IMG/VR virus record: IMGVR_UViG_3300045988_141143
DNA: 64,000 nt
Reading direction: 5' to 3' (one strand)
Source of the DNA: a virus
The translations under genes were made by a program, and so were the position numbers. Position 1 is the stretch's first letter, and each line of letters opens with the position of its first letter. Shown here piece after piece: positions 1 to 55,627 of the stretch. The notes under the pieces are model-generated. The model did not search any database, had not been told where the DNA came from, and saw only the letters and a list, made by a program, of their open reading frames with translations.

Positions 1-35
1 ACTAAGCATATACTATATACTTTTAATTTTTTATA

Positions 36-43
36 TACTTTTG
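36..43 (+). promoter_or_regulatory. Candidate Bacteroidota-type -7 promoter box TACTTTTG (consensus TAnnTTTG)
   Basis: Exact TAnnTTTG match 27 nt upstream of the ATG at 71. The following leader AATACTAATAT recurs upstream of the gene at 2194. Confidence 0.45.
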
Positions 44-2995: not shown

Positions 2996-3056
2996 ACGCA
3001 ATAAATTTTTCCGTGAAACATTGTCCCTAAAAAGGGGCGTTAATACACTCAGAGCA

Positions 3057-3089
3057 AGTCTACTGAAAGTCTACTGAAAGTTCACTGAC
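3057..3089. repeat. Three tandem 11-bp direct repeats (AAGTCTACTGA x2, AAGTTCACTGA) in the leader of gene 2558..2995
   Basis: Read directly. One helical turn per unit. Lies between a TACCTTTA-like box (about 3104-3112, minus strand) and the start codon. Confidence 0.8.
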
Positions 3090-21173: not shown

Positions 21174-22967
21174 TTACTCCTGTTCCTGCTTCTTGACGCC
21201 TGTCTTCGAGTTGTCGAGGGTGGTGAGCACCTCACGGTCTATCTGCCATTCGAGGTGTGTGTCCCATTCATTGACATCGTCGATTACCTCCAAGGCGCGG
21301 AGCATGAGCTGCTGCAATGGGGCAAACTGTATCTGCTTGACGAGGAAACGCTCACGGAGGTCGGTGCCGCCCGATGAGGTTGCGTCGCCAGGGGTGTTGC
21401 CGATGAGCTTGGAGTCGAGACCCATGGCGAAGAAGATGATGCTCGTAATCTCCTGCAGCTCGGTCTTCTCGGCTTGCGCTTGCGAGTTGGCCTTGCTCTC
21501 TATCTCCACAATCTCCCATGCCTTGTGCTCCTTGCCGTCGGCGCCGGTGAACACGGCAGAGATGAGCGCCTGACCTGCATTGTCGGGATTGGAGAGCCAC
21601 GTGTTGATGTCGCTGAACACTTCCTGCTGAAGCTGCGCCATGGTCTTGGTCTTCTTGTCGCCCTGCTGGGTGTAGAGGTTCTTGAGATATTCCTGGTGAA
21701 TGTAGATGACGCGACCGATGATGTTGGAGTTGCGCTTACGGGTGAGTCGGTCGTCGACAATGGTGAAGGCATACTCGTAGATGCTTCCGGCAAAGATGGA
21801 ATGCCAGAGGGCATCGGCATAGTAGGGACCGCCATAGTCGCGTGGCGACATGATGAAGCGGGTGGGGCGGTCCTTGCGGCTTACCCGCTGCTGACGGGCA
21901 CGGCGCACGGCTGCCTGGAGGTCTTTCACTGCCGACACGGTGGGAAGATAGGGCACGGCGGCGATGCTCTTGTCGAGGTCGGCGAACTGGGCGGTGCGGT
22001 CTTGCGTGGGGTCGAGCCACTGGTTCGACACGTAGGCATAATTGATGCGATAGTTGGTGTCCTGTCGCTCCAGTCGGGTGGTGAAGATGCTGCGGTGTTT
22101 CAGTCCTACGACCTTGGGGGTCCACTGGCTGGTGGGTACCGGCTTGCCATCGTCGGAGAGTTGCCGCTGGTTGAGTTGCAGCTCGACGAAGCACTGCGAC
22201 ATGAGCGACATGTCGCCCGCCATGTTGAGGAAGGTCTGCATCAGGTCGTTGTCCTTCATGAATTTCTGCACCTCGCGGTTGGTCTGTTCCCACTTGGCGA
22301 GGGCATCCTTCAGTGCTTTCATCTCATCGCTGTCCTTTGGCTGGCCTTCGGTCTGCTGACTGACGGAATGCAGAGGGTCGTCGGGGTCGCCGCTGACGCC
22401 GTTCTGTTGTTGTGCCTGACGTTCTGCTGCCTCCTGTGCCTTGAGGTCGGCTATCTGTCCGCGGAGCAGTGTGCCAGCCGATGCGTAGGGGATGTATTTC
22501 TCGGTGATGTTGCCGCCTACGTACTGGGTGTAGTGGTATTTGGGCGAGGGTCCGTGGCCTACGAGTATCTTCTTGATGAAGTCGACGCCGGCAGCGGTGA
22601 AGGGCGACATCCGTGAGAGAATCCAGACGAGGTTGGGCAGTCGGTTGCCCACGCCCCATTCCATGTAGCCCAGTCCGGGTGTTCCCACGCCGTTGGGCTT
22701 GGCCTTGTTCTCGCCGCCGCTGGAGGCGAAGATGGTGGAAATCTGTCGTCGTGCTCCCGATGAGGTAGTCGAGCTGCCCTGCGCTGTCATGCCGGCTGTC
22801 TCGAAGAGCATGGAGCGGACGTAATCGTTCCATGAGAAGACTTGTGCGCCGCTGTTGGGATTGATGAAAGCAGAGGGCGACACGGCCACATATCCATCGC
22901 GCTTCAGCTCCTCACTACGATCTTGGAACTGCTGTAAGTTGGTAACTCTGTTCTTGTTGCGTGACAT
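21174..22967 (-). CDS. Portal protein candidate (597 aa)
   Basis: Size, own promoter, and a C-terminal region (GNTPGDATSSGGTDLRERFLVKQIQFAPLQQ) resembling portal stem/clip regions. Not verified by search. Confidence 0.5.
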   Translation of the reverse strand: MSRNKNRVTNLQQFQDRSEELKRDGYVAVSPSAFINPNSGAQVFSWNDYVRSMLFETAGMTAQGSSTTSSGARRQISTIFASSGGENKAKPNGVGTPGLGYMEWGVGNRLPNLVWILSRMSPFTAAGVDFIKKILVGHGPSPKYHYTQYVGGNITEKYIPYASAGTLLRGQIADLKAQEAAERQAQQQNGVSGDPDDPLHSVSQQTEGQPKDSDEMKALKDALAKWEQTNREVQKFMKDNDLMQTFLNMAGDMSLMSQCFVELQLNQRQLSDDGKPVPTSQWTPKVVGLKHRSIFTTRLERQDTNYRINYAYVSNQWLDPTQDRTAQFADLDKSIAAVPYLPTVSAVKDLQAAVRRARQQRVSRKDRPTRFIMSPRDYGGPYYADALWHSIFAGSIYEYAFTIVDDRLTRKRNSNIIGRVIYIHQEYLKNLYTQQGDKKTKTMAQLQQEVFSDINTWLSNPDNAGQALISAVFTGADGKEHKAWEIVEIESKANSQAQAEKTELQEITSIIFFAMGLDSKLIGNTPGDATSSGGTDLRERFLVKQIQFAPLQQLMLRALEVIDDVNEWDTHLEWQIDREVLTTLDNSKTGVKKQEQE

Positions 22968-23023: not shown

Positions 23024-23031
23024 CAAATGTA
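23024..23031 (-). promoter_or_regulatory. Candidate -7 promoter box TACATTTG upstream of the portal candidate
   Basis: TAnnTTTG match. It lies in a 23-nt block identical to the one upstream of the HU-like gene. Confidence 0.5.
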
Positions 23032-23326
23032 CTAAGAATTGTCTTAGTGGTACGGACATGAGTCAGAACTGCGAGAGCTGCACGGTGCGGTTGCCTCATT
23101 CGGCGCACCGCGTATGAGCGAAAAAACTGCGGTCCCGTCGGTTCTCCCTTCCCTTTTCCGTCCACTTCATAGAATTGGAAAGTTCGAGAGTGTTGGTAGT
23201 CTTCGGGAATGAAGCCGTGCGAGCCGCAGTTAATCTAACAATATGTTTCACGTTTTTGCATTATGGCCTATATTATGTTGTTGTCGGGGTGTTGTGTTGC
23301 GTCCGCCTACATATCGTAGTCGTACA

Positions 23327-24287: not shown

Positions 24288-24839
24288 TTACGACTCAATC
24301 TCGGGAGGGTTGCCACCAGGTTTCTGCTCGCCGCCTCCAGTGGTGCCGGAATCGCCCGTGCCGGGAGTTGCTGGAGCATCCGTTGCAGCATCGCCCACTC
24401 GCTTGAACGAGCCGTGCTGTGCGAAGGCGGCGGTGAACTTCTTGGAGAAGTCGATGGCTACGCCTGCGGTGAGGTCCTTTGTGGTGAGGTCGGCGGCGGT
24501 AATCTCTCGGTTCACGTCAACGTCCTCGCCTGCTGCCTTACGTGCTTCGAGCTTCGCCTTGAGCTGGCTCTGAGTGAGCGAACCGCTGACGGTAGGACGT
24601 ACCGTCATGCCCTCGGCAGACACCTGTACCTTGGTGCCCAGTGCCAACAGAAGCGGCAGCTTTTTCTCCAACTGCGTCATCACGGCCATTACGTCCGCTG
24701 CGCCTACTGTAGAGTCCTGCGCCATGTAGTCGCAAAATTCAGGGAATGACATCTGCTGCAAGTCAACGATCTGTGCGCTTGCAACCTTTTCTTTCGTGAA
24801 ATTATTCACACGAACTGCAATTCTTGTTTTGATTGCCAT
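24288..24839 (-). CDS. HU-like (HU_HIG-type) DNA-binding protein with glycine-rich tail
   Basis: N-terminal region typical of Bacteroidota HU-family proteins (AADVMAVMTQLEKKLPLLLALGTKVQV). C-terminal GGGEQKPGGNPPEIES. Confidence 0.55.
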   Translation of the reverse strand: MAIKTRIAVRVNNFTKEKVASAQIVDLQQMSFPEFCDYMAQDSTVGAADVMAVMTQLEKKLPLLLALGTKVQVSAEGMTVRPTVSGSLTQSQLKAKLEARKAAGEDVDVNREITAADLTTKDLTAGVAIDFSKKFTAAFAQHGSFKRVGDAATDAPATPGTGDSGTTGGGEQKPGGNPPEIES

Positions 24840-24900: not shown

Positions 24901-24957
24901 GGTTTTTTGCAATGTGCCGACACTTTTTATCGAATGTGCCGACACTTTTTGTCAAAT
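24901..24957 (+). repeat. Three AATGTGCCGACAC sites at exact 22-bp spacing (operator-like array)
   Basis: Copies start at 24901, 24923 and 24945. They lie between the promoter box (24985-24992) and the HU-like start codon (24839). Confidence 0.85.
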
Positions 24958-24984
24958 GTGCCGACACATTGCTTTTTTCGACTA

Positions 24985-24992
24985 CAAATGTA
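24985..24992 (-). promoter_or_regulatory. Candidate -7 promoter box TACATTTG upstream of the HU-like gene
   Basis: TAnnTTTG match inside the shared block TGCTTTTTTCGACTACAAATGTA. Confidence 0.5.
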
Positions 24993-25024
24993 GGGAGAAA
25001 ATTTTGAGCGGTGCGGACATAAAT

Positions 25025-25802: not shown

Positions 25803-26837
25803 TTACTTTTTCCTTATCTTTTCCATTTCCTCATTCTCCACCGTCAGGCGTTCCAGGTGCTCCAGCACGAGGGAATAGCTTTGGTTGTTCACCTGGTCCT
25901 CCGTCAGTCCGGCATACTTCTGCATGGTGGCGGTGGTGGCAGTGTAAATCTCCAAGGGCGTGGTGGGCTTCTGCGACTTGAGGGGCTGCACCTTGAACAC
26001 ATGACGATAACGATGAGCGAGGGTGTGCATCACGCCCGTCCACCAAAAGAGTATCACCTGCCATGCCGTTTCGGGAAAATCGCGGAAATAGGACTGGTTC
26101 GTCTCCCACTGGTTCAACTCGTAGTGGAAGTCGTGCTTCACCATGCCCGTGTTACTGTCCACATAGTCGGTCGTGCCGTTGAAGATGGTGGCGAGAAACA
26201 TCGTCCGGGCAGAACTCACGTTCTCCATCTGCCGCTGCATCTGCTCGTCGGTGAAAGTGCCGCGCTGCTGCATCTTCAAGAGGCTGTTGCTAAGTCGGGT
26301 GTAGGTCTGCATCATGTCGGAGGCGAAGCGATACTGCGCCCACGAGAATCCGTCGAGGTCGTTGGCAGGACCGCTGAACACCTTCTTGCGTCGCCACCAC
26401 GCGCGGCGTCGCCGGATGACAGGGTAGGGAAAACGGGTGAGGAAAGCACCGTTCTCGTTATCAAGCCAGTCGAGCAAGCCTGCTCCCTGAGCGATATACT
26501 CTGCCGACTTTCGGGCGTCGGTCTTTGCCTTGGGCGTCAGCCAATAGTTGATTTGCCACAGATACAGCGGAAAGGTGCCGCTGTCCTCGTCGTCCTGCAT
26601 ACGGCAGAGGTAATACTGCTCGCTGAGGTCGAGGCGAGTGTCGGGCGCTGCCACTATCTCCAAGCCCGACAGGGCAAAGAAGATCGCCACCTTCACATTG
26701 CGCATGTCGAAGGGGTGGTATCTGTCCTGCCGTTCCACCTGCTCACGTATCACGTCGGCTATCAGCTCCAACTGTTTCGTAGAGCAGAGGTTCCAGTGGC
26801 GGGGAAGATGTAAGTCTATTTTTTTTGGATTGTTCAT
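25803..26837 (-). CDS. Hypothetical protein (344 aa)
   Basis: Long ORF with an ATG start. The opposite-strand 422-aa ORF has aberrant composition. Confidence 0.5.
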   Translation of the reverse strand: MNNPKKIDLHLPRHWNLCSTKQLELIADVIREQVERQDRYHPFDMRNVKVAIFFALSGLEIVAAPDTRLDLSEQYYLCRMQDDEDSGTFPLYLWQINYWLTPKAKTDARKSAEYIAQGAGLLDWLDNENGAFLTRFPYPVIRRRRAWWRRKKVFSGPANDLDGFSWAQYRFASDMMQTYTRLSNSLLKMQQRGTFTDEQMQRQMENVSSARTMFLATIFNGTTDYVDSNTGMVKHDFHYELNQWETNQSYFRDFPETAWQVILFWWTGVMHTLAHRYRHVFKVQPLKSQKPTTPLEIYTATTATMQKYAGLTEDQVNNQSYSLVLEHLERLTVENEEMEKIRKK

Positions 26838-26859
26838 TTTTACAGAATCCTAAGTTTTT

Positions 26860-26976
26860 ATCCCAAAAATGCCAAAATTGGATTATTTTAGTCCAGAAAA
26901 ATCCAAAAATGGACGAATTTAATCCCAAAAATCCAAAAGCTGGACCAGATTTATCCAGAAAAATCCAAAAATGGAT
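26860..26976. repeat. Four 24-bp imperfect palindromes at exact 31-bp periodicity
   Basis: Units start at 26860, 26891, 26922 and 26953: ATCCCAAAAATGCCAAAATTGGAT / GTCCAGAAAAATCCAAAAATGGAC / ATCCCAAAAATCCAAAAGCTGGAC / ATCCAGAAAAATCCAAAAATGGAT. Spacers are 7 bp. Confidence 0.9.
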
Positions 26977-33830: not shown

Positions 33831-35552
33831 TTAGAGAAGACCATTATCACGTTTATACTTCTCGATAGCCTTCTTTGAGCCAACAGGATCTGAAGGGTTC
33901 CAAGTGGGGTAGGCTGTATGAGGTTCGGTTACCTGTGCGCCTTCTCCGTTGTTACCTGGTGCAGTTCCTGCCGCAGGTTCCTTGCCAGCCTCTTCGGTAA
34001 GGGCGGCTATCTGGGCGTCCTTGTCGGCAATGGTCTGCTCGGCTGTAGCGAGCGATTCCTTTGCGCCTTTCAGTTCCTCTTCGACCTTGGCTTTGTCGGT
34101 TGTCAGGGCAGCTATCTCCTCATCCTTCTTGGTTGTCAGGGCAGCTATCTCCTCGTCCTTCTTGGCAGTAAGAGTTGTCAGTTCCTCGTTCTTCTTGGCG
34201 AGAGTTGCAGCCGTTTCATCAGAAAGAGTCTTAGCTGCATCGTGTTCTTTCTGAAGAGCATCAAACTTAGCCTGAAGGTCGGCGAGCTTTTGCTCTGCTG
34301 TAGTGGCTTTCTGCTTGGCATCGGCCACAGCCTGCTCGTTGGTGTTCAACTTGGTTTCGAGAGAGTCGAGCAATGGAGCATTCATGAATGTGCCTTCTGC
34401 ATTGACTTCAATCTCGCCTTCCTTGATACCACAAGCAGCGCTAATCAATGGGTAATTTTTCATATCAATATGAGTTTGGTTAAAATTGTTGTTGTTATCC
34501 TTTTTTGAAGATGGAGCGGTTGTTGGCTCTTGTGCTGAACTGGCTACTGTAGCTGAGGTAGAGGCGTTCTTAGGCTCTTTTTCTGTGCCTTCGGTATCAG
34601 TACCTTGGTCATCAGTGGTGATTTCTCTCTCGATAGGCTTTGCTGTACCATTGTAGAGATCGAAGCAGCGGTGGATGCAGTCAAGGAAAGTAGATTGACC
34701 ATCCACCAAAATGCCCTTTGCCTCTTCGGCTGTGAATATCTTTCCATGGAGATGCTCCTTTTTAGCTTTCGGGCAAGCCTTCTTTACATCTCTGCGGAAC
34801 TCGACGCCCAGTTCAGCCAACTCTGCCACGAACTTCTTCGTATTGCCGTCGTTGGCAATATCACGGAACTCGCGATTCTTGTCATAAGACTCCGGATCGT
34901 AAATCTCGTGATAAGTCTTGTTGGTGAACTTGTTGGTACTGCCGTCGGCCTCAGTATAAAAAGCACCCATCACACCGATGCAGCCTACACCGTCCTTCGG
35001 GTGCATGTAATATCGCTCATCGCAGAGAGAGGCGAGATACATACCGGCAGAATAGCAGTCGCCATCGATAAAACACAGAACTGGCTGGCCAAGTGAACGT
35101 GCGTAATTGATGGCCTGTTCATAATCATTCTTAGCCCATGCTGTACCGCCAGGTGTGTCAATAATAAAGATATGACCACGACACAAAGGATGATTGGCTG
35201 CATTAATCATTATGTTACGATGATCGACGGAACCATACGAGCAACCGCCGCCATTGCGGGTGATAGGACCATCAACTGTAAGGACAGAGACAAAAGGAAA
35301 ATTTTGTGCATCATCATCTTTGAGAGCCCACTGACTTCTCACCTGATTACCATCCTCTGAGATCTGATATTCCTCGGGATAGTAGACGCATCCGTTCTCG
35401 TCTATAGCAGTGACAAAACCGCAAGTCTTCTGAGGCTTCTCGAAAGCAGCATGAGTGTTCAGGTTCTGCTCTAAGGCCTTACGTATTCCGTGTACGAACT
35501 CGGGGTTGATCATCCACTCCTTGTTGGTCATAATTTCAAAAAGACCTTTCAT
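33831..35552 (-). CDS. Head maturation protease (S49/SppA-ClpP fold) fused to a coiled-coil scaffold domain
   Basis: IFIIDTPGGTAWA...CFIDGDCYSAGMYLASLCD...VGCIGVMG matches the S49 pattern InSPGG / aaSaayxla / GSIGV. The C-terminal 200 aa is Ala/Glu/Lys/Thr-rich coiled coil. Confidence 0.7.
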   Translation of the reverse strand: MKGLFEIMTNKEWMINPEFVHGIRKALEQNLNTHAAFEKPQKTCGFVTAIDENGCVYYPEEYQISEDGNQVRSQWALKDDDAQNFPFVSVLTVDGPITRNGGGCSYGSVDHRNIMINAANHPLCRGHIFIIDTPGGTAWAKNDYEQAINYARSLGQPVLCFIDGDCYSAGMYLASLCDERYYMHPKDGVGCIGVMGAFYTEADGSTNKFTNKTYHEIYDPESYDKNREFRDIANDGNTKKFVAELAELGVEFRRDVKKACPKAKKEHLHGKIFTAEEAKGILVDGQSTFLDCIHRCFDLYNGTAKPIEREITTDDQGTDTEGTEKEPKNASTSATVASSAQEPTTAPSSKKDNNNNFNQTHIDMKNYPLISAACGIKEGEIEVNAEGTFMNAPLLDSLETKLNTNEQAVADAKQKATTAEQKLADLQAKFDALQKEHDAAKTLSDETAATLAKKNEELTTLTAKKDEEIAALTTKKDEEIAALTTDKAKVEEELKGAKESLATAEQTIADKDAQIAALTEEAGKEPAAGTAPGNNGEGAQVTEPHTAYPTWNPSDPVGSKKAIEKYKRDNGLL

Positions 35553-40016: not shown

Positions 40017-40194
40017 ATATTTTTTGTTTGAATTTTAACATTTGAGCAATCAGTAAACAATCAGTAAACAATCAGTAGACATGAAGTAAATACGCATAGG
40101 CTTCACTCTTTGCGAAAATCGGGGCTTTTTTTGCCGTTTTTCGAGTTTTTGATTTAACACTTGTGAAAAAGTGTTTTTATGTGATTACGACCCT

Positions 40195-41280
40195 TTAGCC
40201 ATAGATTTCCTGCATATCCTCCCTCGAAAGTGTTACCTTGGCTCTTTTGCAAAACATGAAAAAAGTATTTGCTCTTACTCTTTCGTATTTTCCGAATGAC
40301 TTCCAAGGAGCCACAAAGTCTGATTCACGGTGTCCGTGGTTGGCATCAAAGGGACGGAAACGAGAAACTCGCTTCCACATATCATAGCCTTCATTCGGAT
40401 CGATACTGTATAAAGACATTCCGCATTTAACCCAGTCATCATAGTTTTCCATAATGTCAACAGCATTCTGCTCTACCTTACGTACAAGGACACGCGCTTT
40501 GCGCAAGATGATGTCGGGTGTATCATTTTCCCAATCACCAGTATAACCCGACCTCTGACCTGACGACGTATTTTCGTAATGCGTAGCAACTTTAGTTACA
40601 GGAATTAGCGATGGCAACACAGCCATATCTTCCAGTCCCTTATACGGCACCACATTTTCATTGATATATATATGTTCGGGATCGTCCCAGGAGGCGAAGC
40701 GCACACGACCGATGTTGCTGCAAGCCTTGTCGAGCATGATGCCGATAGCGGCATATTCTTTGAGCAGAGCTTTGAACTGGTCTTTGTGTCTTTCGGGATA
40801 GGCCAGACGAACCAGACCGAAATAACCAGTACCAGAGCAAGACCGCATCATTAATCCTATCTCAGGACGAAAACGGGCAAGCTTAAATATACTTTCAAAA
40901 TCAGTTATCTGAAGATTGTCCTGCAGATCAATGTCGATGGCGAGCCAGCCCGTGTGCTGTTTCAGGTGGCTCTCTCGTCGGCTCACCATGACACGCTGCC
41001 CTGGATGCGTCAGACTGTCATCTTCATAGAGAGCGAACAAGCCGCTAAGAGTGGCACCAGGTAACATCTTCTTGGTATTGATGTACTCAGGCATTTTCTT
41101 TGCCTTGCTGCCAAATTCCTGACGCATAGCACGAAGACGCTGCACATACGGCTTCCATCTATCCGTAAGACAGAACTCGCGGATGGTCATCTGCTGAATG
41201 CACTCACCCGTCTCGCGGTCTACGAAACGGCCATAAGCATCTTGGGCAGACTCATAAATAGAGCAAACTTCGTCAAACAT
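40195..41280 (-). CDS. VirE/BT4734-type N-terminal domain protein (replication/primase-associated candidate)
   Basis: GWLAIDIDLQ, SCSGTGYFGLVRL and ACSNIGRVRFASWD resemble conserved blocks of Bacteroidota VirE_N-type proteins. Recognition is from memory only. Confidence 0.4.
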   Translation of the reverse strand: MFDEVCSIYESAQDAYGRFVDRETGECIQQMTIREFCLTDRWKPYVQRLRAMRQEFGSKAKKMPEYINTKKMLPGATLSGLFALYEDDSLTHPGQRVMVSRRESHLKQHTGWLAIDIDLQDNLQITDFESIFKLARFRPEIGLMMRSCSGTGYFGLVRLAYPERHKDQFKALLKEYAAIGIMLDKACSNIGRVRFASWDDPEHIYINENVVPYKGLEDMAVLPSLIPVTKVATHYENTSSGQRSGYTGDWENDTPDIILRKARVLVRKVEQNAVDIMENYDDWVKCGMSLYSIDPNEGYDMWKRVSRFRPFDANHGHRESDFVAPWKSFGKYERVRANTFFMFCKRAKVTLSREDMQEIYG

Positions 41281-41457
41281 ATCTTAGTTATTATACTTAA
41301 TACTTTCACTGCAAAATTAAGAAATAAAACCTAAATAACAAAATATCTGGGGTATTTTCTTGTGTATTTAAGATATATTAAAAGAAATTTAATCGAAATA
41401 TCCCAGTTGTTTCACGTAATGATAGGTATTTTTGAGTGATGAGAAGGAGCATAAAAT

Positions 41458-42150
41458 AAAATGAGACCAAAAAGAAGACTCTGGTCTCATTTCTGTATCA
41501 AAAAGTCCCATTTTTCAAAAATGAACCAAAAAGCAAAAGTCCACTCATCCTATTTTTCTCCTTTTTAGTCCCATGATTGTCTCACGATTATCACCCTGTT
41601 GCCCACTTATTTCTTGCTGTTACTTGCTTACTAATTAGCTTTTTATATTATTTTGGTCTCAAAATGATTATTTTTTTTATAAACTAATATGCGCATAAGA
41701 AATAAAATATTTATCTAAAAGATATAAAATACAGCAAAATTGGCTCAAATCCATCTTATACTTTGCTCCATTTCAATCTTGTAAGTAACTTATTGTCTGA
41801 TGTTTACGGCAAAGCCGTTAATGCTACTAACTTCTAAATTGAGGTTAGGGGCTTTTGATTTTAGGAGAATAAAAAAATTACCCAAAATTCTGATATAGTA
41901 TGCTTAGGATTCATGAAAAATGCGACCAAAACCCTGAAATGAGACCAAAAATGCGAATAAAGTCCCAATAAATGAGACTGTTACACCACTACTCTACCCT
42001 GTCACATTCATATTTGCGAAATGCGACCAGATTATTCGGATTCCATATTGACTATCGTTTTATAGCCGTTCACACCTCACAGCGAAAGAGAAAAACACTG
42101 CGTTTCACAACGAAAAAAGACCACCACGTTTCACAACGGAGCGGTCTCAT
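41458..42150. repeat. Iteron-rich AT-rich non-coding region (origin/operator candidate)
   Basis: Nine copies of ATG(A/C)GACC. Six are direct at 41461, 41521 (degenerate), 41920, 41939, 41972 and 42021. Three are inverted at 41482, 41654 and 42143. Four AAAGTCC(C/A) copies; 12-bp CGTTTCACAACG x2 (42101, 42127). Confidence 0.6.
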
Positions 42151-42199
42151 CAGAAAATACTAACTAATAAATAAGATAAAGAAAATAAAATTCGTAAAC

Positions 42200-49966: not shown

Positions 49967-49974
49967 CAAAGGTA
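49967..49974 (-). promoter_or_regulatory. Candidate -7 promoter box TACCTTTG at the head of the long minus-strand block
   Basis: TAnnTTTG match about 70 nt upstream of the ATG at 49898. Divergent from the plus-strand box at 50062. Confidence 0.45.
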
Positions 49975-50061
49975 ACGAAAGGCGAAAAAACGGGTGGGAC
50001 ATATTATTTCGCCATGGGGACGGGCAGCGAGGCTTGTCCCAATCGTTTTGGGACGATTTCG

Positions 50062-50069
50062 TAACTTTG
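50062..50069 (+). promoter_or_regulatory. Candidate -7 promoter box TAACTTTG at the head of the plus-strand packaging block
   Basis: TAnnTTTG match 28 nt upstream of the ATG at 50097. Overlaps a TTTGCCGACG sequence related to the TGCCGACAC repeat. Confidence 0.45.
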
Positions 50070-50096
50070 CCGACGTAACAAACAACATAAACAAAG

Positions 50097-50900
50097 ATGA
50101 GTCAGATAACACAAGGCACATTGGCACGCATCGACAAATGGTTGGCGCAAGGCATCAGTATCGAGACGATGTTCCCGAACCTGGAGCAGCGCTATCGTAT
50201 GCAACTCTGTGCGGAATATTACAAGAGGTGGGTGCAGAACAAGGACATTGACCCTCGTACCACCTGTCGCAACATTGCCAGACGCGACTACGAGTTGTTT
50301 ATCAACCAGGCCGCGCAGGGCAACAAGGAGGCTGTGGCGATGATTCAGGCGCTGGGCATCACGGTGGATGACGAGGGCAATGTGAGAAATCGCACCATCA
50401 CGGAACTCAACAACGACGTGGCGGTGTGCAATCACATCATCCGCTTCTTCACCACCGACGAGAGTCCGCGCCACAAAGCCATGTACCTCAATTCGGCAGA
50501 ATGGTTGATACGCACGGGCAAGCAGCAGAACAACGACCGTGCCGTGGATAAGGGTATGCAGGCCTTGGCCAACATATACAGCAACTTCATCGAGGAGAAG
50601 GACGCTACGGACGAGATGCCGGACATGAGCCGCATTGCCATCACGCAGGACGTGAGCATCGTGAAGCGCGACCGCATCAACTACACCGAGGAGGAGAAGC
50701 TTCGTCTGGCCCGCAAGTATGGTCTTACGGCAAAGGATATGCGGGATATAGCCGAAGAGGAATCCCTGCAGGCTGTAGGCAAAGAGAATGAGCCCGACTA
50801 CTTCGAGTACATGGAGAAGAAAGACGAGGAGGAGGACGTGATTAGACACGGGTACATGAAAGAAAGCGAAATGACGGATTCCGAAACGACGGATGAGTGA
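50097..50900 (+). CDS. Hypothetical protein with acidic C-terminus (small terminase candidate by position only)
   Basis: First gene of the plus-strand block that ends with the large terminase. The antisense 335-aa ORF has aberrant composition. Confidence 0.35.
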   Translation: MSQITQGTLARIDKWLAQGISIETMFPNLEQRYRMQLCAEYYKRWVQNKDIDPRTTCRNIARRDYELFINQAAQGNKEAVAMIQALGITVDDEGNVRNRTITELNNDVAVCNHIIRFFTTDESPRHKAMYLNSAEWLIRTGKQQNNDRAVDKGMQALANIYSNFIEEKDATDEMPDMSRIAITQDVSIVKRDRINYTEEEKLRLARKYGLTAKDMRDIAEEESLQAVGKENEPDYFEYMEKKDEEEDVIRHGYMKESEMTDSETTDE

Positions 50901-50976
50901 AAACGAAACAGAAGTATCTGTTTGATGCAAACATAAGTATCTGTTTGATATAAACAATGGGCATCGTTTGAAAAAC

Positions 50977-51145
50977 AACTTGCCGACACTTTTCATCGAA
51001 TGTGCCGACACATTAAAACGAAGGTGTTAGCACTTTTTGCCAAAAGTGTTAGCACATTTTACCAAAAGTGTTAGCACATCAAAAAAACGGAGGTTCAGTT
51101 GATTTCATCAAAAGAGTCGGCTGATTTCGCCAAAAGAGTCGAACC
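50977..51145 (+). repeat. Eight-register 22-bp periodic array: TGCCGACAC x2, GTGTTAGCAC x3, one degenerate unit, AAGAGTCG x2
   Basis: Ten-mer registers at 50980, 51002, 51024, 51046, 51068, 51090, 51112 and 51134. Preceded by AAGTATCTGTTTGAT x2 (50912, 50935). Confidence 0.85.
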
Positions 51146-51193
51146 TCGGCAAATATATAGTGCATAAATGCGCTATAAAAACACTATAAAAAT

Positions 51194-52044
51194 ATGTTAA
51201 ACGAACAACTGCAGAAAAAGGTAAAACAGTCGATAAAACTCCTGCAGAGTGTGCAGAAGCGATACGACGGCGAGATAGAGATAGCCTACTCGGGCGGTAA
51301 GGACTCCGACGTGATCCTTCAGCTGGCGAAAGAGGCAGGCATCAAGTATCGGGCCATATACAAGAATACGACCATCGACCCGCCAGGCACGTTGGGGCAC
51401 GTCAGAGAAATGGGAGTGGAGATACTGCGGGCCAAGACATCCTTCTTTCATCTCGTGGCACAGAAAGGATTTCCATCTCGCTTTACTCGTTTCTGTTGTG
51501 AAGAACTGAAGGAATACAAGGTGCTCAACAAAAGTATTATCGGCGTGCGCAAGGCTGAGAGCCGGAAACGAAACGAAAGATACAACGAGCCGACAGAGTG
51601 CCGATACTTCGGAAAGAAGAAAGAGGAAAATCACGTAGAACAGATTTATCCTATTCTGGAATGGACCGATGAGGACGTGCGTGACTTCATCATAGACAGA
51701 AAGTTGAAACTCGCACCCATTTATTACAATTCGGGGGGCAAATCGACGTGTCGAAACGTCTTGGCTGTATGTGCTGTCCTCTTGCCTCAAGGCGCAAGCG
51801 CATTATCGAGTTTCAGAAATATCCCAAGATAGCAAAGGCTTATCTCCGTGCGGGGCAACGATTTATGGAAACGCATCCTGACAGCAAGGCGTGCCAGAGG
51901 TACGACAATGTTTACGAATGGTTCGTTCGCGACGTATTTTACAGCTCCAATGCAGATTGGAGCAAGGTAAGCACAGGGCTGTTCGGTAAGCCGGACTTCA
52001 AGAAATTCTTGGAGGACAAGTTCGGTATTGACTTGACATTATAA
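51194..52044 (+). CDS. PAPS-reductase-family (adenine nucleotide alpha-hydrolase) protein, split at a G6 tract as assembled
   Basis: The SGGKDS PP-loop lies in ORF 51194..51832. The family-typical C-terminal RLGCMCCP lies in ORF 51748..52044 (-1 frame). Seven G at 51733-51738 would fuse them as ...YYNSGGQIDVSKRLGCMCCP.... Confidence 0.7.
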
Positions 52045-53632: not shown

Positions 53633-55627
53633 ATGCAGCAAGCACACAACATATACTTAACCAAATTCCAGCAGCAGTCACTATACATGGGAGCCAAGGA
53701 TGAGCGAGTGATTGCTGCCCGCCGTGTGGGTAAGACCGACGGACTTGTGGCTCCTTACGTCTGGACGGCAAGCAACTCCATGCCTGGTATGCTCGGCGCA
53801 TGGGTGGCTGTGTCACGTCAGCAGGGCTTCGGCAAGACCATACCGAGTACGATGGCGGCCATGGAACGTATGTTCGGATTTACGCAGGGCATTCACTTCG
53901 GTTGGGGTCGCCCACCGAAGCACGCTCGCGAGAGTATCTTCAAGCCTAAGAACTACGACAACTACATTTGGTTGGCCAATGGTGCGGGATGGGTTCTTAT
54001 CTCCCTCTCGCAGACCGCCTCTGCCAACTCCTACACGTTCTCTGCGATGGTGGGCGACGAGGCGAGATTCTTTCCCTATAAGAAAGTGACCGACGAGCTG
54101 ATGCCGGCGCTTTCAGGACAGACGCACCCCTTGGGCGACATCAACTTCTCTGACCACAACCCGATGTATAAAAGTACGCGCTTTCTCTCGGATGCCTCGC
54201 TCACAGCCAAAGGTTCGTGGTTGGAGAAGGAGGAGGAGAAGTTGGATATGACGGTGGAGACGGGTCCATTCAAGGGCAAGACCTACCGATGGGTACAGGA
54301 GCAGCTGGAGGATTATGCCGACAAGGTGATACGCTACAACGACCTGTTGTATAACGCCAAGAAGACCGGTCACGGGGTGCATGTGGTGCCGAAGGAACTG
54401 CGCACGATGATACGCGCCGTGGCGCTGAAGATGATGAAACATGAGGGGCAGTTCCGCATCATGCCCAACCATGGCCAACACGTCACGAAGGGCATGGTGG
54501 AGATGGCTGTCAACTACAAACTCATTCCGCAGGAGGATGCCGAACTGATTTACGATTACGAATACCTTATCACGCCGGAAGAGGATTTCGAGATGCAGAT
54601 GTTTCTGCGGTCGAAGAAATTCTCTGAAAACTATCTGCGTGAGCTGCGCCGTGTGGCTTTCTGCGTGCGCCGTGCGTCATCGCTCGACAATGTGGATATT
54701 CTGGGTGAAGACTATATTCGCCAGATGAAACGAGATTTGCCTCCGATGACCTTCGCTATTTCAATCCTCAACATCAAAGTAAAGAAGTCAAACGACGGAT
54801 TTTACTCCAACCTCGACATCGATCATGTTCACGGATATATCCCCGACGAGATAGACCCCTTATCGTCTGCCAAATTTTCCACGCAAAAGGTATCGGGCAT
54901 CATCGGTGGCAAGAAAGTCACGAGCGAGAGTTATCAGCCCGACTTCAAGGAGTTGGGCGAGCGCAACGACTCGCGCCAGGACTCCGACTGCATCAACTCC
55001 CTTCCTTTATATATAGCCCTCGATTACAATGCCAATATCAATACGTTGGTGGTCGGGCAGATGTACGAGCGCGACGGCATGGAATGTCTGAACGTCATCA
55101 AGAGTTTCTATGTAAAGAACGAGCGCAAGTTGCGTGAAGTGATAGCCGATTTTTCCGACTATTACGCACCGAAGCGAGCCATCAACCGTGACGTGACGTA
55201 TTTCTATGATGCTACGGCAAAGCAGGGAGCATCCTATGCTTCGTCGGACGAGCGATTCTATATGACCGTGATTGCTGAATTGGAGAAGCACGGCTGGAAC
55301 GTGACGGCCATTGATATGGGCGCACCAGAGAAGCACGAGGTGAAGCACAAGATTATCAACGACGGACTGGCTCACCTCTCCTACCCTGCCATCCGCATTA
55401 ACCAGGTGAACAATCCCGACCTTATCATCGCCATGCAGCTGTGTGAGGTGCAGATTTCGTACAAGGGATTCCACAAAGACAAGAGTCAGGAGAAGAAGCC
55501 CGAAAGCGAGGACACGCTGCCCCTGCAGCAACGTACCGACTTCACGGATGCCTTCGATACGCTGTACTTAGGTTGCAAGTTCTTCCGTGTCGGTGGCGGT
55601 TGGTTTGTGCTGCCGAGTGGAAGATAG
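53633..55627 (+). CDS. terL: Terminase large subunit
   Basis: Walker A IAARRVGKT, Walker B FSAMVGDEARF, and a C-terminal nuclease-like Asp-containing region (YIALDYNANINT). Size 664 aa. Confidence 0.75.
   Translation: MQQAHNIYLTKFQQQSLYMGAKDERVIAARRVGKTDGLVAPYVWTASNSMPGMLGAWVAVSRQQGFGKTIPSTMAAMERMFGFTQGIHFGWGRPPKHARESIFKPKNYDNYIWLANGAGWVLISLSQTASANSYTFSAMVGDEARFFPYKKVTDELMPALSGQTHPLGDINFSDHNPMYKSTRFLSDASLTAKGSWLEKEEEKLDMTVETGPFKGKTYRWVQEQLEDYADKVIRYNDLLYNAKKTGHGVHVVPKELRTMIRAVALKMMKHEGQFRIMPNHGQHVTKGMVEMAVNYKLIPQEDAELIYDYEYLITPEEDFEMQMFLRSKKFSENYLRELRRVAFCVRRASSLDNVDILGEDYIRQMKRDLPPMTFAISILNIKVKKSNDGFYSNLDIDHVHGYIPDEIDPLSSAKFSTQKVSGIIGGKKVTSESYQPDFKELGERNDSRQDSDCINSLPLYIALDYNANINTLVVGQMYERDGMECLNVIKSFYVKNERKLREVIADFSDYYAPKRAINRDVTYFYDATAKQGASYASSDERFYMTVIAELEKHGWNVTAIDMGAPEKHEVKHKIINDGLAHLSYPAIRINQVNNPDLIIAMQLCEVQISYKGFHKDKSQEKKPESEDTLPLQQRTDFTDAFDTLYLGCKFFRVGGGWFVLPSGR

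What the first reader, a model, noticed from the sequence alone, without database searches (positions are those of the whole stretch)
50912..51145. Repeat-dense intergenic region with an eight-register 22-bp periodic array in the packaging block
Ten-mer cores occur at 50980 (TTGCCGACAC), 51002 (GTGCCGACAC), 51024, 51046 and 51068 (GTGTTAGCAC x3), 51090 (degenerate) and 51112 and 51134 (AAGAGTCGnn x2). All are exactly 22 bp apart, two helical turns, and each is preceded by a CAAAA-type spacer. Upstream lie two copies of AAGTATCTGTTTGAT (50912, 50935). A related TTTGCCGACG overlaps the promoter box at 50062-50069. The GTG-N4-CAC cores are partial palindromes. The array sits between the first gene of the terminase-containing operon (a small-terminase candidate by position) and the PAPS-reductase-like gene. 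Same-face phasing of three sub-families of sites suggests cooperative binding of one or several DNA-binding proteins. Candidate roles are a pac or terminase small-subunit recognition site, a centromere-like partition site, or an operator bank.
Basis: seen in the sequence. Interest (0 to 1): 0.58.

Follow-up and report, generated by a model that had tools for sequence, protein, structure and literature searches.

The report
Operator-like repeat bank matching phage HU-HIG protein
The periodic repeats are real and are most likely tandem binding sites (operators) for an HU-family DNA-binding protein encoded by this gut phage, not a packaging or partition site; the protein's N-terminus changes in step with the repeat sequence across related phages.

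Summary
The array is real. TRF finds four tandem families, and lag-22 self-identity is 0.59, against at most 0.446 in 5000 shuffles.

The units are 10-bp pseudo-palindromes flanked by A/T tracts, in modules C (x2), D (x3) and E (x3). Upstream lie two other palindromic modules.

The same C unit occurs three times at 24914-24967. There it sits between a Bacteroidetes-type promoter and the start codon of a phage HU-HIG (PF18291) gene.

In 29 distinct related loci, the core type at that promoter tracks residues 13-14 of the protein's N-terminal extension:
- HL goes with a central TA (16 of 16).
- NF, SI or AI goes with a central CG (13 of 13).

This holds in three sequence backgrounds. Six look-ups made after the rule was stated all fitted it.

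The C, D and E cores of the reported array each serve as the sole HU-HIG promoter array in some lineage. So the reported array is a composite operator bank, and only C is cognate to the resident protein.

The bank is deleted in one 97%-identical relative and absent from most relatives. That argues against a pac site, an origin or a centromere. Binding itself is inferred, not shown.

The parts
50909..50956 (.). Module A: two 23-bp units (AAGTATCTGTTTGAT at 50912-50926 and 50935-50949). Each holds a pseudo-palindrome (CAGA-AGTA-TCTG), interleaved with TGTTTG/CAAACA inverted repeats.
   Evidence: Copy number is 0-3 in relatives.
50953..50971 (.). Module B: AACAATGGGCATCGTTTGA, a palindrome of form AAACNAT-GGGC-ATNGTTT. 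It is followed by an A-rich leader that loosely resembles the leader of the HU-HIG promoter.
   Evidence: It occurs 1-2 times in relatives. The resemblance to a promoter is weak.
50980..51011 (.). Module C: two units, TTGCCGACAC at 50980-50989 and GTGCCGACAC at 51002-51011. This core type is cognate to the resident HU-HIG allele.
   Evidence: In L001 the second copy is inverted to GTGTCGGCAC.
51024..51077 (.). Module D: three perfect GTGTTAGCAC cores (51024, 51046, 51068) inside AAAAG...TTTT flanks, 22 bp apart. This is the operator type of HL-allele HU-HIG lineages.
51092..51145 (.). Module E: GGTTCAGTTG (51092, degenerate), GAGTCGGCTG (51114) and GAGTCGAACC (51136), with TGATTTC(A/G)(T/C)CAAAA spacers. 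This is the operator type of the AKVIV/SI-allele lineages.
51173..51192 (+). Module F: CTATAAAAA x2 with an 11-bp period, immediately before the ATG at 51194.
   Evidence: It occurs three times in L001, L003 and L229.
24914..24967 (.). Second array: three GTGCCGACAC cores (24914, 24936, 24958) with a 22-bp period. They lie between the promoter and the start codon of the HU-HIG gene, at roughly +11 to +64 of the predicted transcript.
24985..25020 (-). Promoter of the HU-HIG gene: ATGTCC, 22 nt, then the -7 box TACATTTG. The same promoter class occurs at 23024-23059(-) without an array, at 49967-50002(-), and as TTGTCC...TAACTTTG at 50034-50069(+) for the 267-aa gene.
24288..24839 (-). HU-HIG family DNA-binding protein (183 aa). 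It has an N-terminal extension (residues 1-26), an HU core and a Gly-rich tail. It is the proposed binder of the arrays.
   Evidence: Pfam PF18291 at 2e-8. The HU core aligns from residue 27.
50097..50900 (+). 267-aa all-alpha protein with an acidic tail, first gene of the operon. Function unknown, and not shown to be a small terminase.
51194..52044 (+). PAPS-reductase-like gene downstream of the bank. It is frameshifted in this window (two ORFs) but intact (283 aa) in L231.
53633..55627 (+). Large terminase subunit, at the distal end of the same-strand gene block.

Best explanation
The 22-bp units are double-stranded DNA operators of the kind recognised by the phage's own HU-HIG protein.

Each unit is a 10-bp pseudo-palindromic core set between an A-tract and a T-tract. 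That design suits one symmetric dimer per unit. The 22-bp (two-turn) spacing puts neighbouring dimers on one face of the helix.

At the HU-HIG gene, three such units lie directly downstream of the promoter. The protein would therefore shut off its own transcription by occlusion or roadblock.

The reported region (50909-51192) is a composite bank of these units. It sits inside the operon that runs from the 267-aa gene into a cassette hot spot (PAPS reductase, methyltransferases) and the large terminase. Two C units match the resident HU-HIG allele. The D and E arrays match the alleles of sister lineages.

The most likely effect is that bound protein gates read-through, or a weak internal promoter, into the downstream accessory and packaging genes. 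The non-cognate arrays would then act in one of three ways:
- as weaker sites in an affinity ladder;
- as sites that keep regulation working when the HU-HIG allele is swapped by recombination;
- as sites that engage HU-HIG proteins supplied in trans.

Shown: the anatomy of the arrays, the second locus, the promoter class, and the protein-operator covariation.
Inferred: binding, repression, and any role of the orphan arrays.
For: 1. Identical C units occur at two loci with the same 22-bp period.

2. At the HU-HIG promoter, the promoter and the gene are conserved across relatives but the array core is lineage-specific. The C, D and E cores of the bank each occur alone there.

3. Covariation holds in 29 distinct loci. 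Residues 13-14 = HL go with a central TA (16 of 16). NF, SI or AI go with a central CG (13 of 13). This is seen in the TRIAV, TRIVF and AKVIV backgrounds.

4. Six look-ups made after the rule was formulated all fitted it.

5. Window against L119 over 520 nt: the differences cluster in the CG-to-TA change in all three cores and in a 10-nt patch in codons 13-19. The intervening leader shows only scattered changes, and the last ~240 nt are identical. That is two separate patches, not one recombination tract.

6. The asymmetric centre of the cores flips between copies (CCGA to TCGG, ATAGC to GCTAT). The C array is also inverted relative to transcription at the two loci. Both fit symmetric recognition of duplex DNA rather than RNA.

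7. The same promoter occurs upstream of the 597-aa gene without any array, so the array is an add-on regulatory module.

8. The bank is identical in independent samples.

9. The variable residues lie in a 26-residue extension ahead of the HU core. PMC5499826 notes that terminal extensions can alter the DNA specificity of HU-fold proteins.
Against: - No binding data exist. The AlphaFold model of HU-HIG failed (pLDDT 38), so the position of residues 11-23 relative to DNA is unknown.
- A 22-bp spacing is tighter than the footprint of a canonical HU/IHF dimer, so the binding mode would have to differ.
- PMC5499826 argued that HU-HIG proteins are unlikely to be sequence-specific transcription factors.
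- The array and codons 13-19 are only about 110-220 bp apart, so linkage contributes to the covariation.
- Only one HU-HIG gene exists in the window and one in the 91-kb relative 134987. The D and E arrays therefore have no resident cognate protein.
- Several contigs that carry a bank at this locus gave no HU-HIG hit in the pattern scans (151591, 138321, 133708, 134988, 128456).
- No canonical TAnnTTTG box lies inside 50901-51193, so the regulatory target at this locus is uncertain.
- L002 lacks the bank entirely.
Confidence: 0.55

Rival explanations
1. The bank consists of recombination scars or expansion-prone repeats with no present function at this locus. On this view, operator modules were left behind by repeated insertion and loss of cassettes, including HU-HIG-type promoter-operator cassettes, at a hypervariable hot spot. 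They are kept only by chance and by concerted evolution.
For: - The region downstream of the 267-aa gene is a cassette hot spot with many alternative genes.
- Module copy numbers vary among close relatives (A 0-3, C 1-2, E 2-3).
- L002 lacks the bank.
- Relatives 104445, 108496, 102495 and 111964 keep the promoter and D array after losing the HU N-domain, so arrays do persist as scars.
- Banks occur in contigs with no detectable HU-HIG gene.
Against: - The three D cores are perfect and the bank is identical in independent samples.
- The 22-bp phasing is kept within modules and across the C-to-D junction.
- Comparable multi-module banks with different module sets recur at the same position in L007, L072 and L082.
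- In L001 and L006 the D array changed in a concerted way (GTGTTAGCCC x2) rather than decaying.
Confidence: 0.17
2. The array acts at the RNA level. The palindromes would form tandem hairpins in the 5' leader or intercistronic mRNA and control stability, processing, termination or translation of the downstream genes.
For: - Both arrays lie in regions expected to be transcribed: downstream of a -7 box at the HU-HIG gene and inside an operon at 50901-51193.
- Both fold much better than shuffles (z = -6.6 and -4.3).
- Changes between core types keep the dyad (for example T2/A9 to G2/C9).
Against: - A low folding energy is automatic for any palindrome array, and the minimum-energy fold pairs different repeats rather than forming local hairpins.
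- Local stems have only 3 G-C/A-U core pairs plus A-U flanks, with mismatches in copies 2 and 3.
- The C array is in opposite orientation relative to transcription at the two loci, and core centres flip between copies. That would change the loop sequences.
- Strict two-turn spacing has no obvious meaning for RNA.
- There is no Rfam match.
- The coding patch that covaries is not complementary to the cores (read).
Confidence: 0.1
3. The array is a pac site or small-terminase recognition region at which packaging starts. The 267-aa protein would act as the small terminase and the HU-like protein as a bending factor, as IHF does at lambda cosB.
For: - It lies in the same-strand block as the large terminase.
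- Arrays of repeated sites plus an HU/IHF-family factor resemble cosB (own knowledge).
Against: - The array is absent after the 267-aa gene in most relatives that share that gene and the operon, and it is deleted in L002.
- The same units stand in front of the HU-HIG gene 26 kb away.
- There is no terminase-small-subunit signal in the 267-aa protein.
- Independent assemblies break near window position 1, not here. This is weak evidence.
Confidence: 0.05
4. The array is an iteron-type replication origin or a plasmid-type centromere, that is, an array bound by an initiator or by a centromere-binding protein.
For: - Direct repeats with about 22-bp phasing and an adjacent AT-rich stretch (51150-51193) resemble iteron origins.
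- Repeat arrays also resemble parC/parS sites (own knowledge).
Against: - No initiator, ParA/ParM/TubZ-type NTPase or ParB/RHH protein was detected beside the array or anywhere among the roughly 60 window proteins scanned.
- The bank is dispensable in L002 and absent in most relatives.
- A 900-bp, 35% GC non-coding region with its own repeated boxes lies next to the primase gene and is a better origin candidate.
- The GC-skew turn near 49-50 kb coincides with the switch in gene orientation.
Confidence: 0.05

Closest known systems
Tripartite operators of lambdoid immunity regions (OR1-3 and OL1-3 of lambda, 434, P22)
   Same: Both have three pseudo-palindromic sites about two helical turns apart and two operator loci per genome. 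Related phages fall into specificity classes in which the operator sequence and the recognition residues of the binder change together. Autoregulation of the binder's own gene is inferred here. (The lambda facts are own knowledge; the features here come.)
   Different: The binder implicated here is an HU-HIG protein with a variable N-terminal extension, not a Cro/CI helix-turn-helix protein. The HTH_3 protein of the window does not track the core type. The arrays lie downstream of the -7 box rather than across divergent promoters. One locus stacks arrays of several specificities, which lambdoid operators do not. No lysogeny module was seen.
Omega (ribbon-helix-helix) repressor heptad arrays of inc18 plasmids such as pSM19035
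   Same: Both involve cooperative binding to short repeats arranged in tandem, with individual units in either orientation. The arrays occur at several promoters of one replicon and include autoregulation. (Own knowledge.)
   Different: The units there are contiguous 7-bp heptads, whereas here they are 10-bp dyads on a 22-bp pitch. No RHH protein was found in the window. The omega arrays also act as a centromere together with a ParA, and no ParA is present here.
IHF/HU superfamily, including sequence-specific IHF sites and the HU-HIG clade of Bacteroidetes (PMC5499826)
   Same: The candidate binder matches PF18291 and PF14848 and carries the Gly-rich tail described for one HU-HIG subclade. IHF shows that an HU fold can read sequence.
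   Different: IHF sites are asymmetric, single and about 30-35 bp long. Here the sites are short dyads 22 bp apart. The HU-HIG clade has no assigned DNA motif and was predicted not to act as sequence-specific transcription factors.
Lambda cosB (R3-I1-R2-R1) and SPP1 pacL/pacR terminase recognition regions
   Same: Both show repeated protein-binding sites near terminase genes, and an HU/IHF-family factor is involved at lambda cosB. (Own knowledge.)
   Different: The bank is not conserved with the terminase operon and is dispensable. Its units are shared with a promoter elsewhere in the genome, and no small terminase was identified.

Membership tests
pac / small-terminase recognition site | Conserved together with the terminase genes among related phages | tested here: not met
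   Only about 13 of the 80 related loci carry an array after the 267-aa gene. L002 (97% identical protein) has it deleted.
pac / small-terminase recognition site | The adjacent gene encodes a small terminase subunit | tested here: inconclusive
pac / small-terminase recognition site | Virion DNA ends or the headful series start at the site | not testable with these tools
   This needs read-start or end mapping. The only hint is that assemblies break near window position 1.
Iteron-type origin | Initiator gene adjacent to or containing the iterons | tested here: not met
   The neighbours are the 267-aa unknown protein and a PAPS-reductase-like gene. The primase-like gene is at 40195-41280, next to a different repeat-rich AT-rich region.
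Iteron-type origin | Indispensable and positionally conserved in relatives | tested here: not met
Plasmid-type centromere (parC/parS array) | Linked partition NTPase and centromere-binding protein genes | tested here: not met
   None were found among the roughly 60 window proteins scanned. About 38 kb of the genome lies outside the window.
Tandem operators with a cognate, co-varying repressor (lambdoid-type logic) | Two or more dyad-symmetric sites with helical phasing next to a promoter | tested here: met
   At the HU-HIG gene there are three sites 22 bp apart, starting about 11 nt after the predicted start site. At 50980-51145 the sites and phasing are present but no canonical promoter box is.
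Tandem operators with a cognate, co-varying repressor (lambdoid-type logic) | Operator sequence covaries with residues of the binder across lineages | tested here: met
   29 of 29 distinct loci follow the rule, in three backgrounds, and six later look-ups fitted it.
Tandem operators with a cognate, co-varying repressor (lambdoid-type logic) | The binder is a Cro/CI-type HTH repressor | tested here: not met
   The HTH_3 protein at 367-711 is nearly identical in a C-type genome and a GGTTCGAACC-type genome, and differs from the window's own copy.
Tandem operators with a cognate, co-varying repressor (lambdoid-type logic) | Demonstrated binding and repression | not testable with these tools
   This needs EMSA or footprinting and reporter or infection assays.
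HU/IHF superfamily, HU-HIG clade (candidate binder) | Match to the HU-HIG profile and an HU core fold | tested here: met
   PF18291 scores 34.7 bits (cut-off 26.2) at 2e-8. PF14848 is below its cut-off. Residues 27-73 align to HU chain 2ndp residues 4-50. The AF2 model was too poor to confirm the fold.
Known RNA families (Rfam 15) | Score at or near a family's gathering threshold | tested here: not met
   Only two miRNA-model matches at 22 bits, against thresholds of 81-102 bits.

The most novel reading that the evidence does not exclude
Phage HU-HIG proteins may be programmable, sequence-specific DNA binders. Their specificity would be set by a few residues at the tip of an N-terminal hairpin: HL for a TA centre, and NF, SI or AI for a CG centre. 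This would define immunity-like groups among co-circulating gut phages, probably of Prevotella.

On this reading, the composite bank deliberately carries 'orphan' operators for the alleles of sister lineages. It would work as an inter-phage device that either senses or titrates the HU-HIG proteins of co-infecting relatives or of the host's expanded HU-HIG paralogs, or keeps the downstream anti-defence and packaging operon regulated after HU-HIG alleles are swapped.
Probability: 0.15. Interest if true: 0.85.

Novelty: new variant of a known kind. Interest (0 to 1): 0.62.

Why it matters
HU-HIG is a large, fast-evolving clade of HU-fold proteins, lineage-specific to Bacteroidetes. It has no known DNA target, and it was explicitly predicted not to act as sequence-specific regulators (PMC5499826).

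Here a phage-borne member comes with a natural series of operator variants and matching protein variants. That gives a directly testable recognition rule and a first candidate function, autoregulation through tandem operators.

It would also add an HU-fold example to the classic picture of heteroimmune operator-repressor pairs. The stacking of several specificities in one intergenic bank, next to an anti-restriction and packaging gene block, would offer a handle on regulatory cross-talk between related gut phages.

For genome annotation, it shows that a striking periodic array beside terminase genes need not be a pac site.

Tried and rejected
- AF2 of HU-HIG from a shallow alignment failed (pLDDT 38). 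A profile search of the PDB reached only a marginal HU hit.
- No close annotated phage was found. No relative was found in GTDB genomes.
- The HTH_3 proteins as binder: rejected, because they do not covary.
- An RHH binder, suggested by an unrelated element carrying GTGTTAGCAC repeats: there is no homologue in the window.
- Pairing between the leader RNA and codons 12-19 as the cause of the covariation: no complementarity is seen.
- Linking the HU allele to the bank composition within single genomes largely failed. Exact-pattern scans returned mostly chance hits or single loci, contig names did not overlap, and one look-up failed.
- The sigma-70 promoter scan is not applicable to Bacteroidetes promoters.
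- Alignment of the module B leader to the HU promoter leader showed only weak similarity.
- The literature search found no description of such arrays.

Full report
**Setting.** The window is part of a gut phage genome of about 100 kb.
- It carries a tape-measure protein, a head protease/capsid fusion, an endolysin, a holin, a primase, methyltransferases and a large terminase.
- Source names for homologous proteins point to Prevotella.
- The 267-aa protein upstream of the array belongs to a small uncharacterised family found on many phage contigs of 50-110 kb.

**Observation.** The 293-bp gap between the stop codon of the 267-aa gene (50900) and the PAPS-reductase-like gene (51194) is built almost entirely of short tandem families.
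- A: AAGTATCTGTTTGAT x2, 23-bp period.
- B: AACAATGGGCATCGTTTGA.
- C: (T/G)TGCCGACAC x2.
- D: GTGTTAGCAC x3.
- E: GGTTCAGTTG, GAGTCGGCTG and GAGTCGAACC.
- F: CTATAAAAA x2, 11-bp period.

Lag-22 self-identity over 50980-51155 is 0.59, and none of 5000 shuffles exceeded 0.446 at any lag. The stated coordinates are correct. The one adjustment concerns the E cores. Relatives also show 24-bp steps between modules.

Each unit reads AAA(A/T)-[10-bp pseudo-palindrome]-(A/T)TTT, followed by a short linker. As a result, a dyad axis recurs every 11 bp.

**A second locus.** GTGCCGACAC recurs three times at 24914, 24936 and 24958, again exactly 22 bp apart and with the same spacer.
- On the minus strand this array lies between a Bacteroidetes-type -7 box (TACATTTG, 24992-24985, preceded by ATGTCC at 25020-25015) and the ATG (24839) of a 183-aa protein.
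- That protein matches the HU-HIG family, PF18291.
- The same promoter stands in front of the 597-aa gene at 22967, with no array.
- The motif ATGTCC-N18-26-TAnnTTTG occurs three times in the window against 0.06 expected.
- The 267-aa gene has a variant of it, TTGTCC...TAACTTTG at 50034-50069, which is the canonical ATGTCC form in relatives.

The array is therefore an add-on module placed just downstream of a promoter of a shared class.

**Covariation.** In relatives, the promoter, the leader and the HU-HIG gene are conserved, but the array core differs by lineage:
- GTGTCGGCAC
- GTGTTAGCAC
- GGGCTAGCCC
- GGGGATAGCCCC
- GGTTCGAACC
- GAGTCGGCTG
- GAGTTAGCTG
- AGTATTAC

The C, D and E cores of the reported bank are thus each the sole operator type of some lineage.

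Protein variation is concentrated in residues 5-23. These lie in a 26-residue extension ahead of the HU core.
- Across 29 distinct loci, residues 13-14 = HL always accompany a central TA (16 of 16). NF, SI or AI always accompany a central CG (13 of 13).
- The association recurs in three backgrounds: TRIAV, TRIVF and AKVIV.
- After stating the rule, I looked up six further proteins with informative combinations (AKVIV with E/D-NHL, S-NAI, S-NSI, and TRIAV with E-NHL). All six fitted.
- In the closest pair (window against L119, 520 nt), the differences cluster in the CG-to-TA change in each of the three cores and in ten substitutions within codons 13-19. The leader between them carries only scattered changes, and the last ~240 nt are identical. 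That is two patches, not one recombination tract.
- The coding patch is not complementary to the cores, so an RNA-pairing explanation fails.
- The HTH_3 protein at 367-711 does not track the core type.

**DNA or RNA.** Several points favour a symmetric protein on duplex DNA.
- The asymmetric centres of the cores flip between neighbouring copies: CCGA/TCGG in L001 and L122, and ATAGC/GCTAT in L095.
- The C array is inverted relative to transcription at the two loci.
- The two-turn pitch is kept.

The good folding energies (z = -6.6 and -4.3) are what any palindrome array gives. No Rfam family matches.

**What the reported array is not.**
- Most of the 80 relatives go straight from the 267-aa gene to other genes without any array.
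- L002, with a 97%-identical 267-aa protein, has a microhomology deletion that removes the bank and most of the PAPS-reductase gene.
- No small-terminase signal was found for the 267-aa protein.
- No initiator or partition proteins were found in the window.
- A 900-bp AT-rich repeat region next to the primase gene is a better origin candidate.

A pac site, an origin and a centromere are therefore each unlikely.

**Interpretation and its limits.** The best reading is that the units are HU-HIG operators.
- At its own gene the protein would autorepress.
- At 50909-51192 a composite bank sits inside the operon ahead of a cassette hot spot and the terminase.
- Only the C units are cognate to the resident allele (N13 F14 V19).
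- The window holds one HU-HIG gene, and so does the 91-kb relative 134987. D and E are therefore orphan arrays in these genomes.
- Banks with other module sets occur at the same place in L007, L072 and L082.
- The window's bank is identical in independent samples.

Three points weigh against a simple story:
- several bank-bearing contigs gave no HU-HIG hit;
- arrays persist as scars after loss of the HU N-domain in four relatives;
- no canonical promoter box lies within the bank.

Whether the orphan arrays form an affinity ladder, act as a compatibility device, engage proteins in trans, or are relics cannot be decided here. No binding has been measured, and the structure prediction for HU-HIG failed.

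**Comparison with what is known.**
- The logic is that of heteroimmune tripartite operators in lambdoid phages, and of omega-type repeat arrays on inc18 plasmids.
- The implicated binder, however, is an HU-HIG protein. That clade has no known motif and was predicted not to be sequence-specific (PMC5499826).
- Stacking several specificities in one bank has no close precedent that I know of.

I rate this a new variant of a known kind.

Noticed in passing
window 51194-52044: The PAPS-reductase-like gene is split by a frameshift in the window (ORFs 51194-51832 and 51748-52044). The same gene is called intact (283 aa) in an otherwise identical locus, L231.
   Followed up: partly
window 41281-42199: A roughly 900-bp non-coding stretch at 35% GC lies beside the primase-like gene. 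It holds repeated ATGAGACCAAAA / ATGCGACCAAAA boxes and a GAGACCA...TGGTCTC palindrome. It is a plausible replication origin.
   Followed up: no
window 26857-26975: A 31-bp unit is repeated about 3.9 times (TCCAnAAAAATCCAAAAATGGA, itself dyad-symmetric), directly upstream of the 344-aa ORF 25803-26837(-). It looks like another promoter-proximal array of a different sequence family.
   Followed up: no
window 40047-40090 and 3056-3088: There are 11-bp tandem repeats (CAATCAGTAAA x3-4 and AAGTCCACTGA x3) in gaps just upstream of genes.
   Followed up: no
window 23024-23059(-), 24985-25020(-), 49967-50002(-), 50034-50069(+): A phage promoter class, (A/T)TGTCC-N18-26-TAnnTTTG, has a non-host-like upstream element. 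It drives the 597-aa gene, the HU-HIG gene, the holin-side operon and the 267-aa/terminase operon. This may be one temporal class, possibly using a phage factor.
   Followed up: partly
window 1-40; L239 1-40; L240 1-40: Three independent assemblies end within about 10 bp of window position 1, just upstream of two Cro/CI-type HTH genes. L239 differs in sequence upstream of that point. This could be a physical genome end or a strain-variable break.
   Followed up: partly
L111 2400-2700 and L112: An unrelated small Rep-encoding element has GTGTTAGCAC repeated 3-4 times at about 11/22-bp spacing, upstream of a ribbon-helix-helix gene. It shares the core with module D, probably by coincidence.
   Followed up: partly
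L109, L113, L115, L116: Relatives keep the promoter and the D-type array but have lost the N-terminal HU domain of the gene. The array is then followed by the C-terminal fragment or by other DNA.
   Followed up: partly
L001-L080, about 0-900 bp after the 267-aa gene: The segment between the 267-aa gene and the Zn-ribbon/terminase genes is a cassette hot spot. It holds two PAPS-reductase types, several methyltransferases, a gene starting MKIGLIDVDGRHG and others. L027, L038 and L068 carry a different 22-bp tandem repeat there (CCGATTGGATTGCGTTCGCCG).
   Followed up: partly
window 50066-50075: TTTGCCGACG directly follows the -7 box of the 267-aa gene promoter. It is specific to this clade (TTTGCCGACA in L002 and L003; TTTGGCTACA in other relatives) and could be a single degenerate C-type site at the start site.
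   Followed up: partly
window 34098-34165: A 33-bp unit is repeated 2.1 times at 97% identity inside the head protease/capsid-like gene (33831-35552, minus strand), so it is a coding repeat.
   Followed up: no
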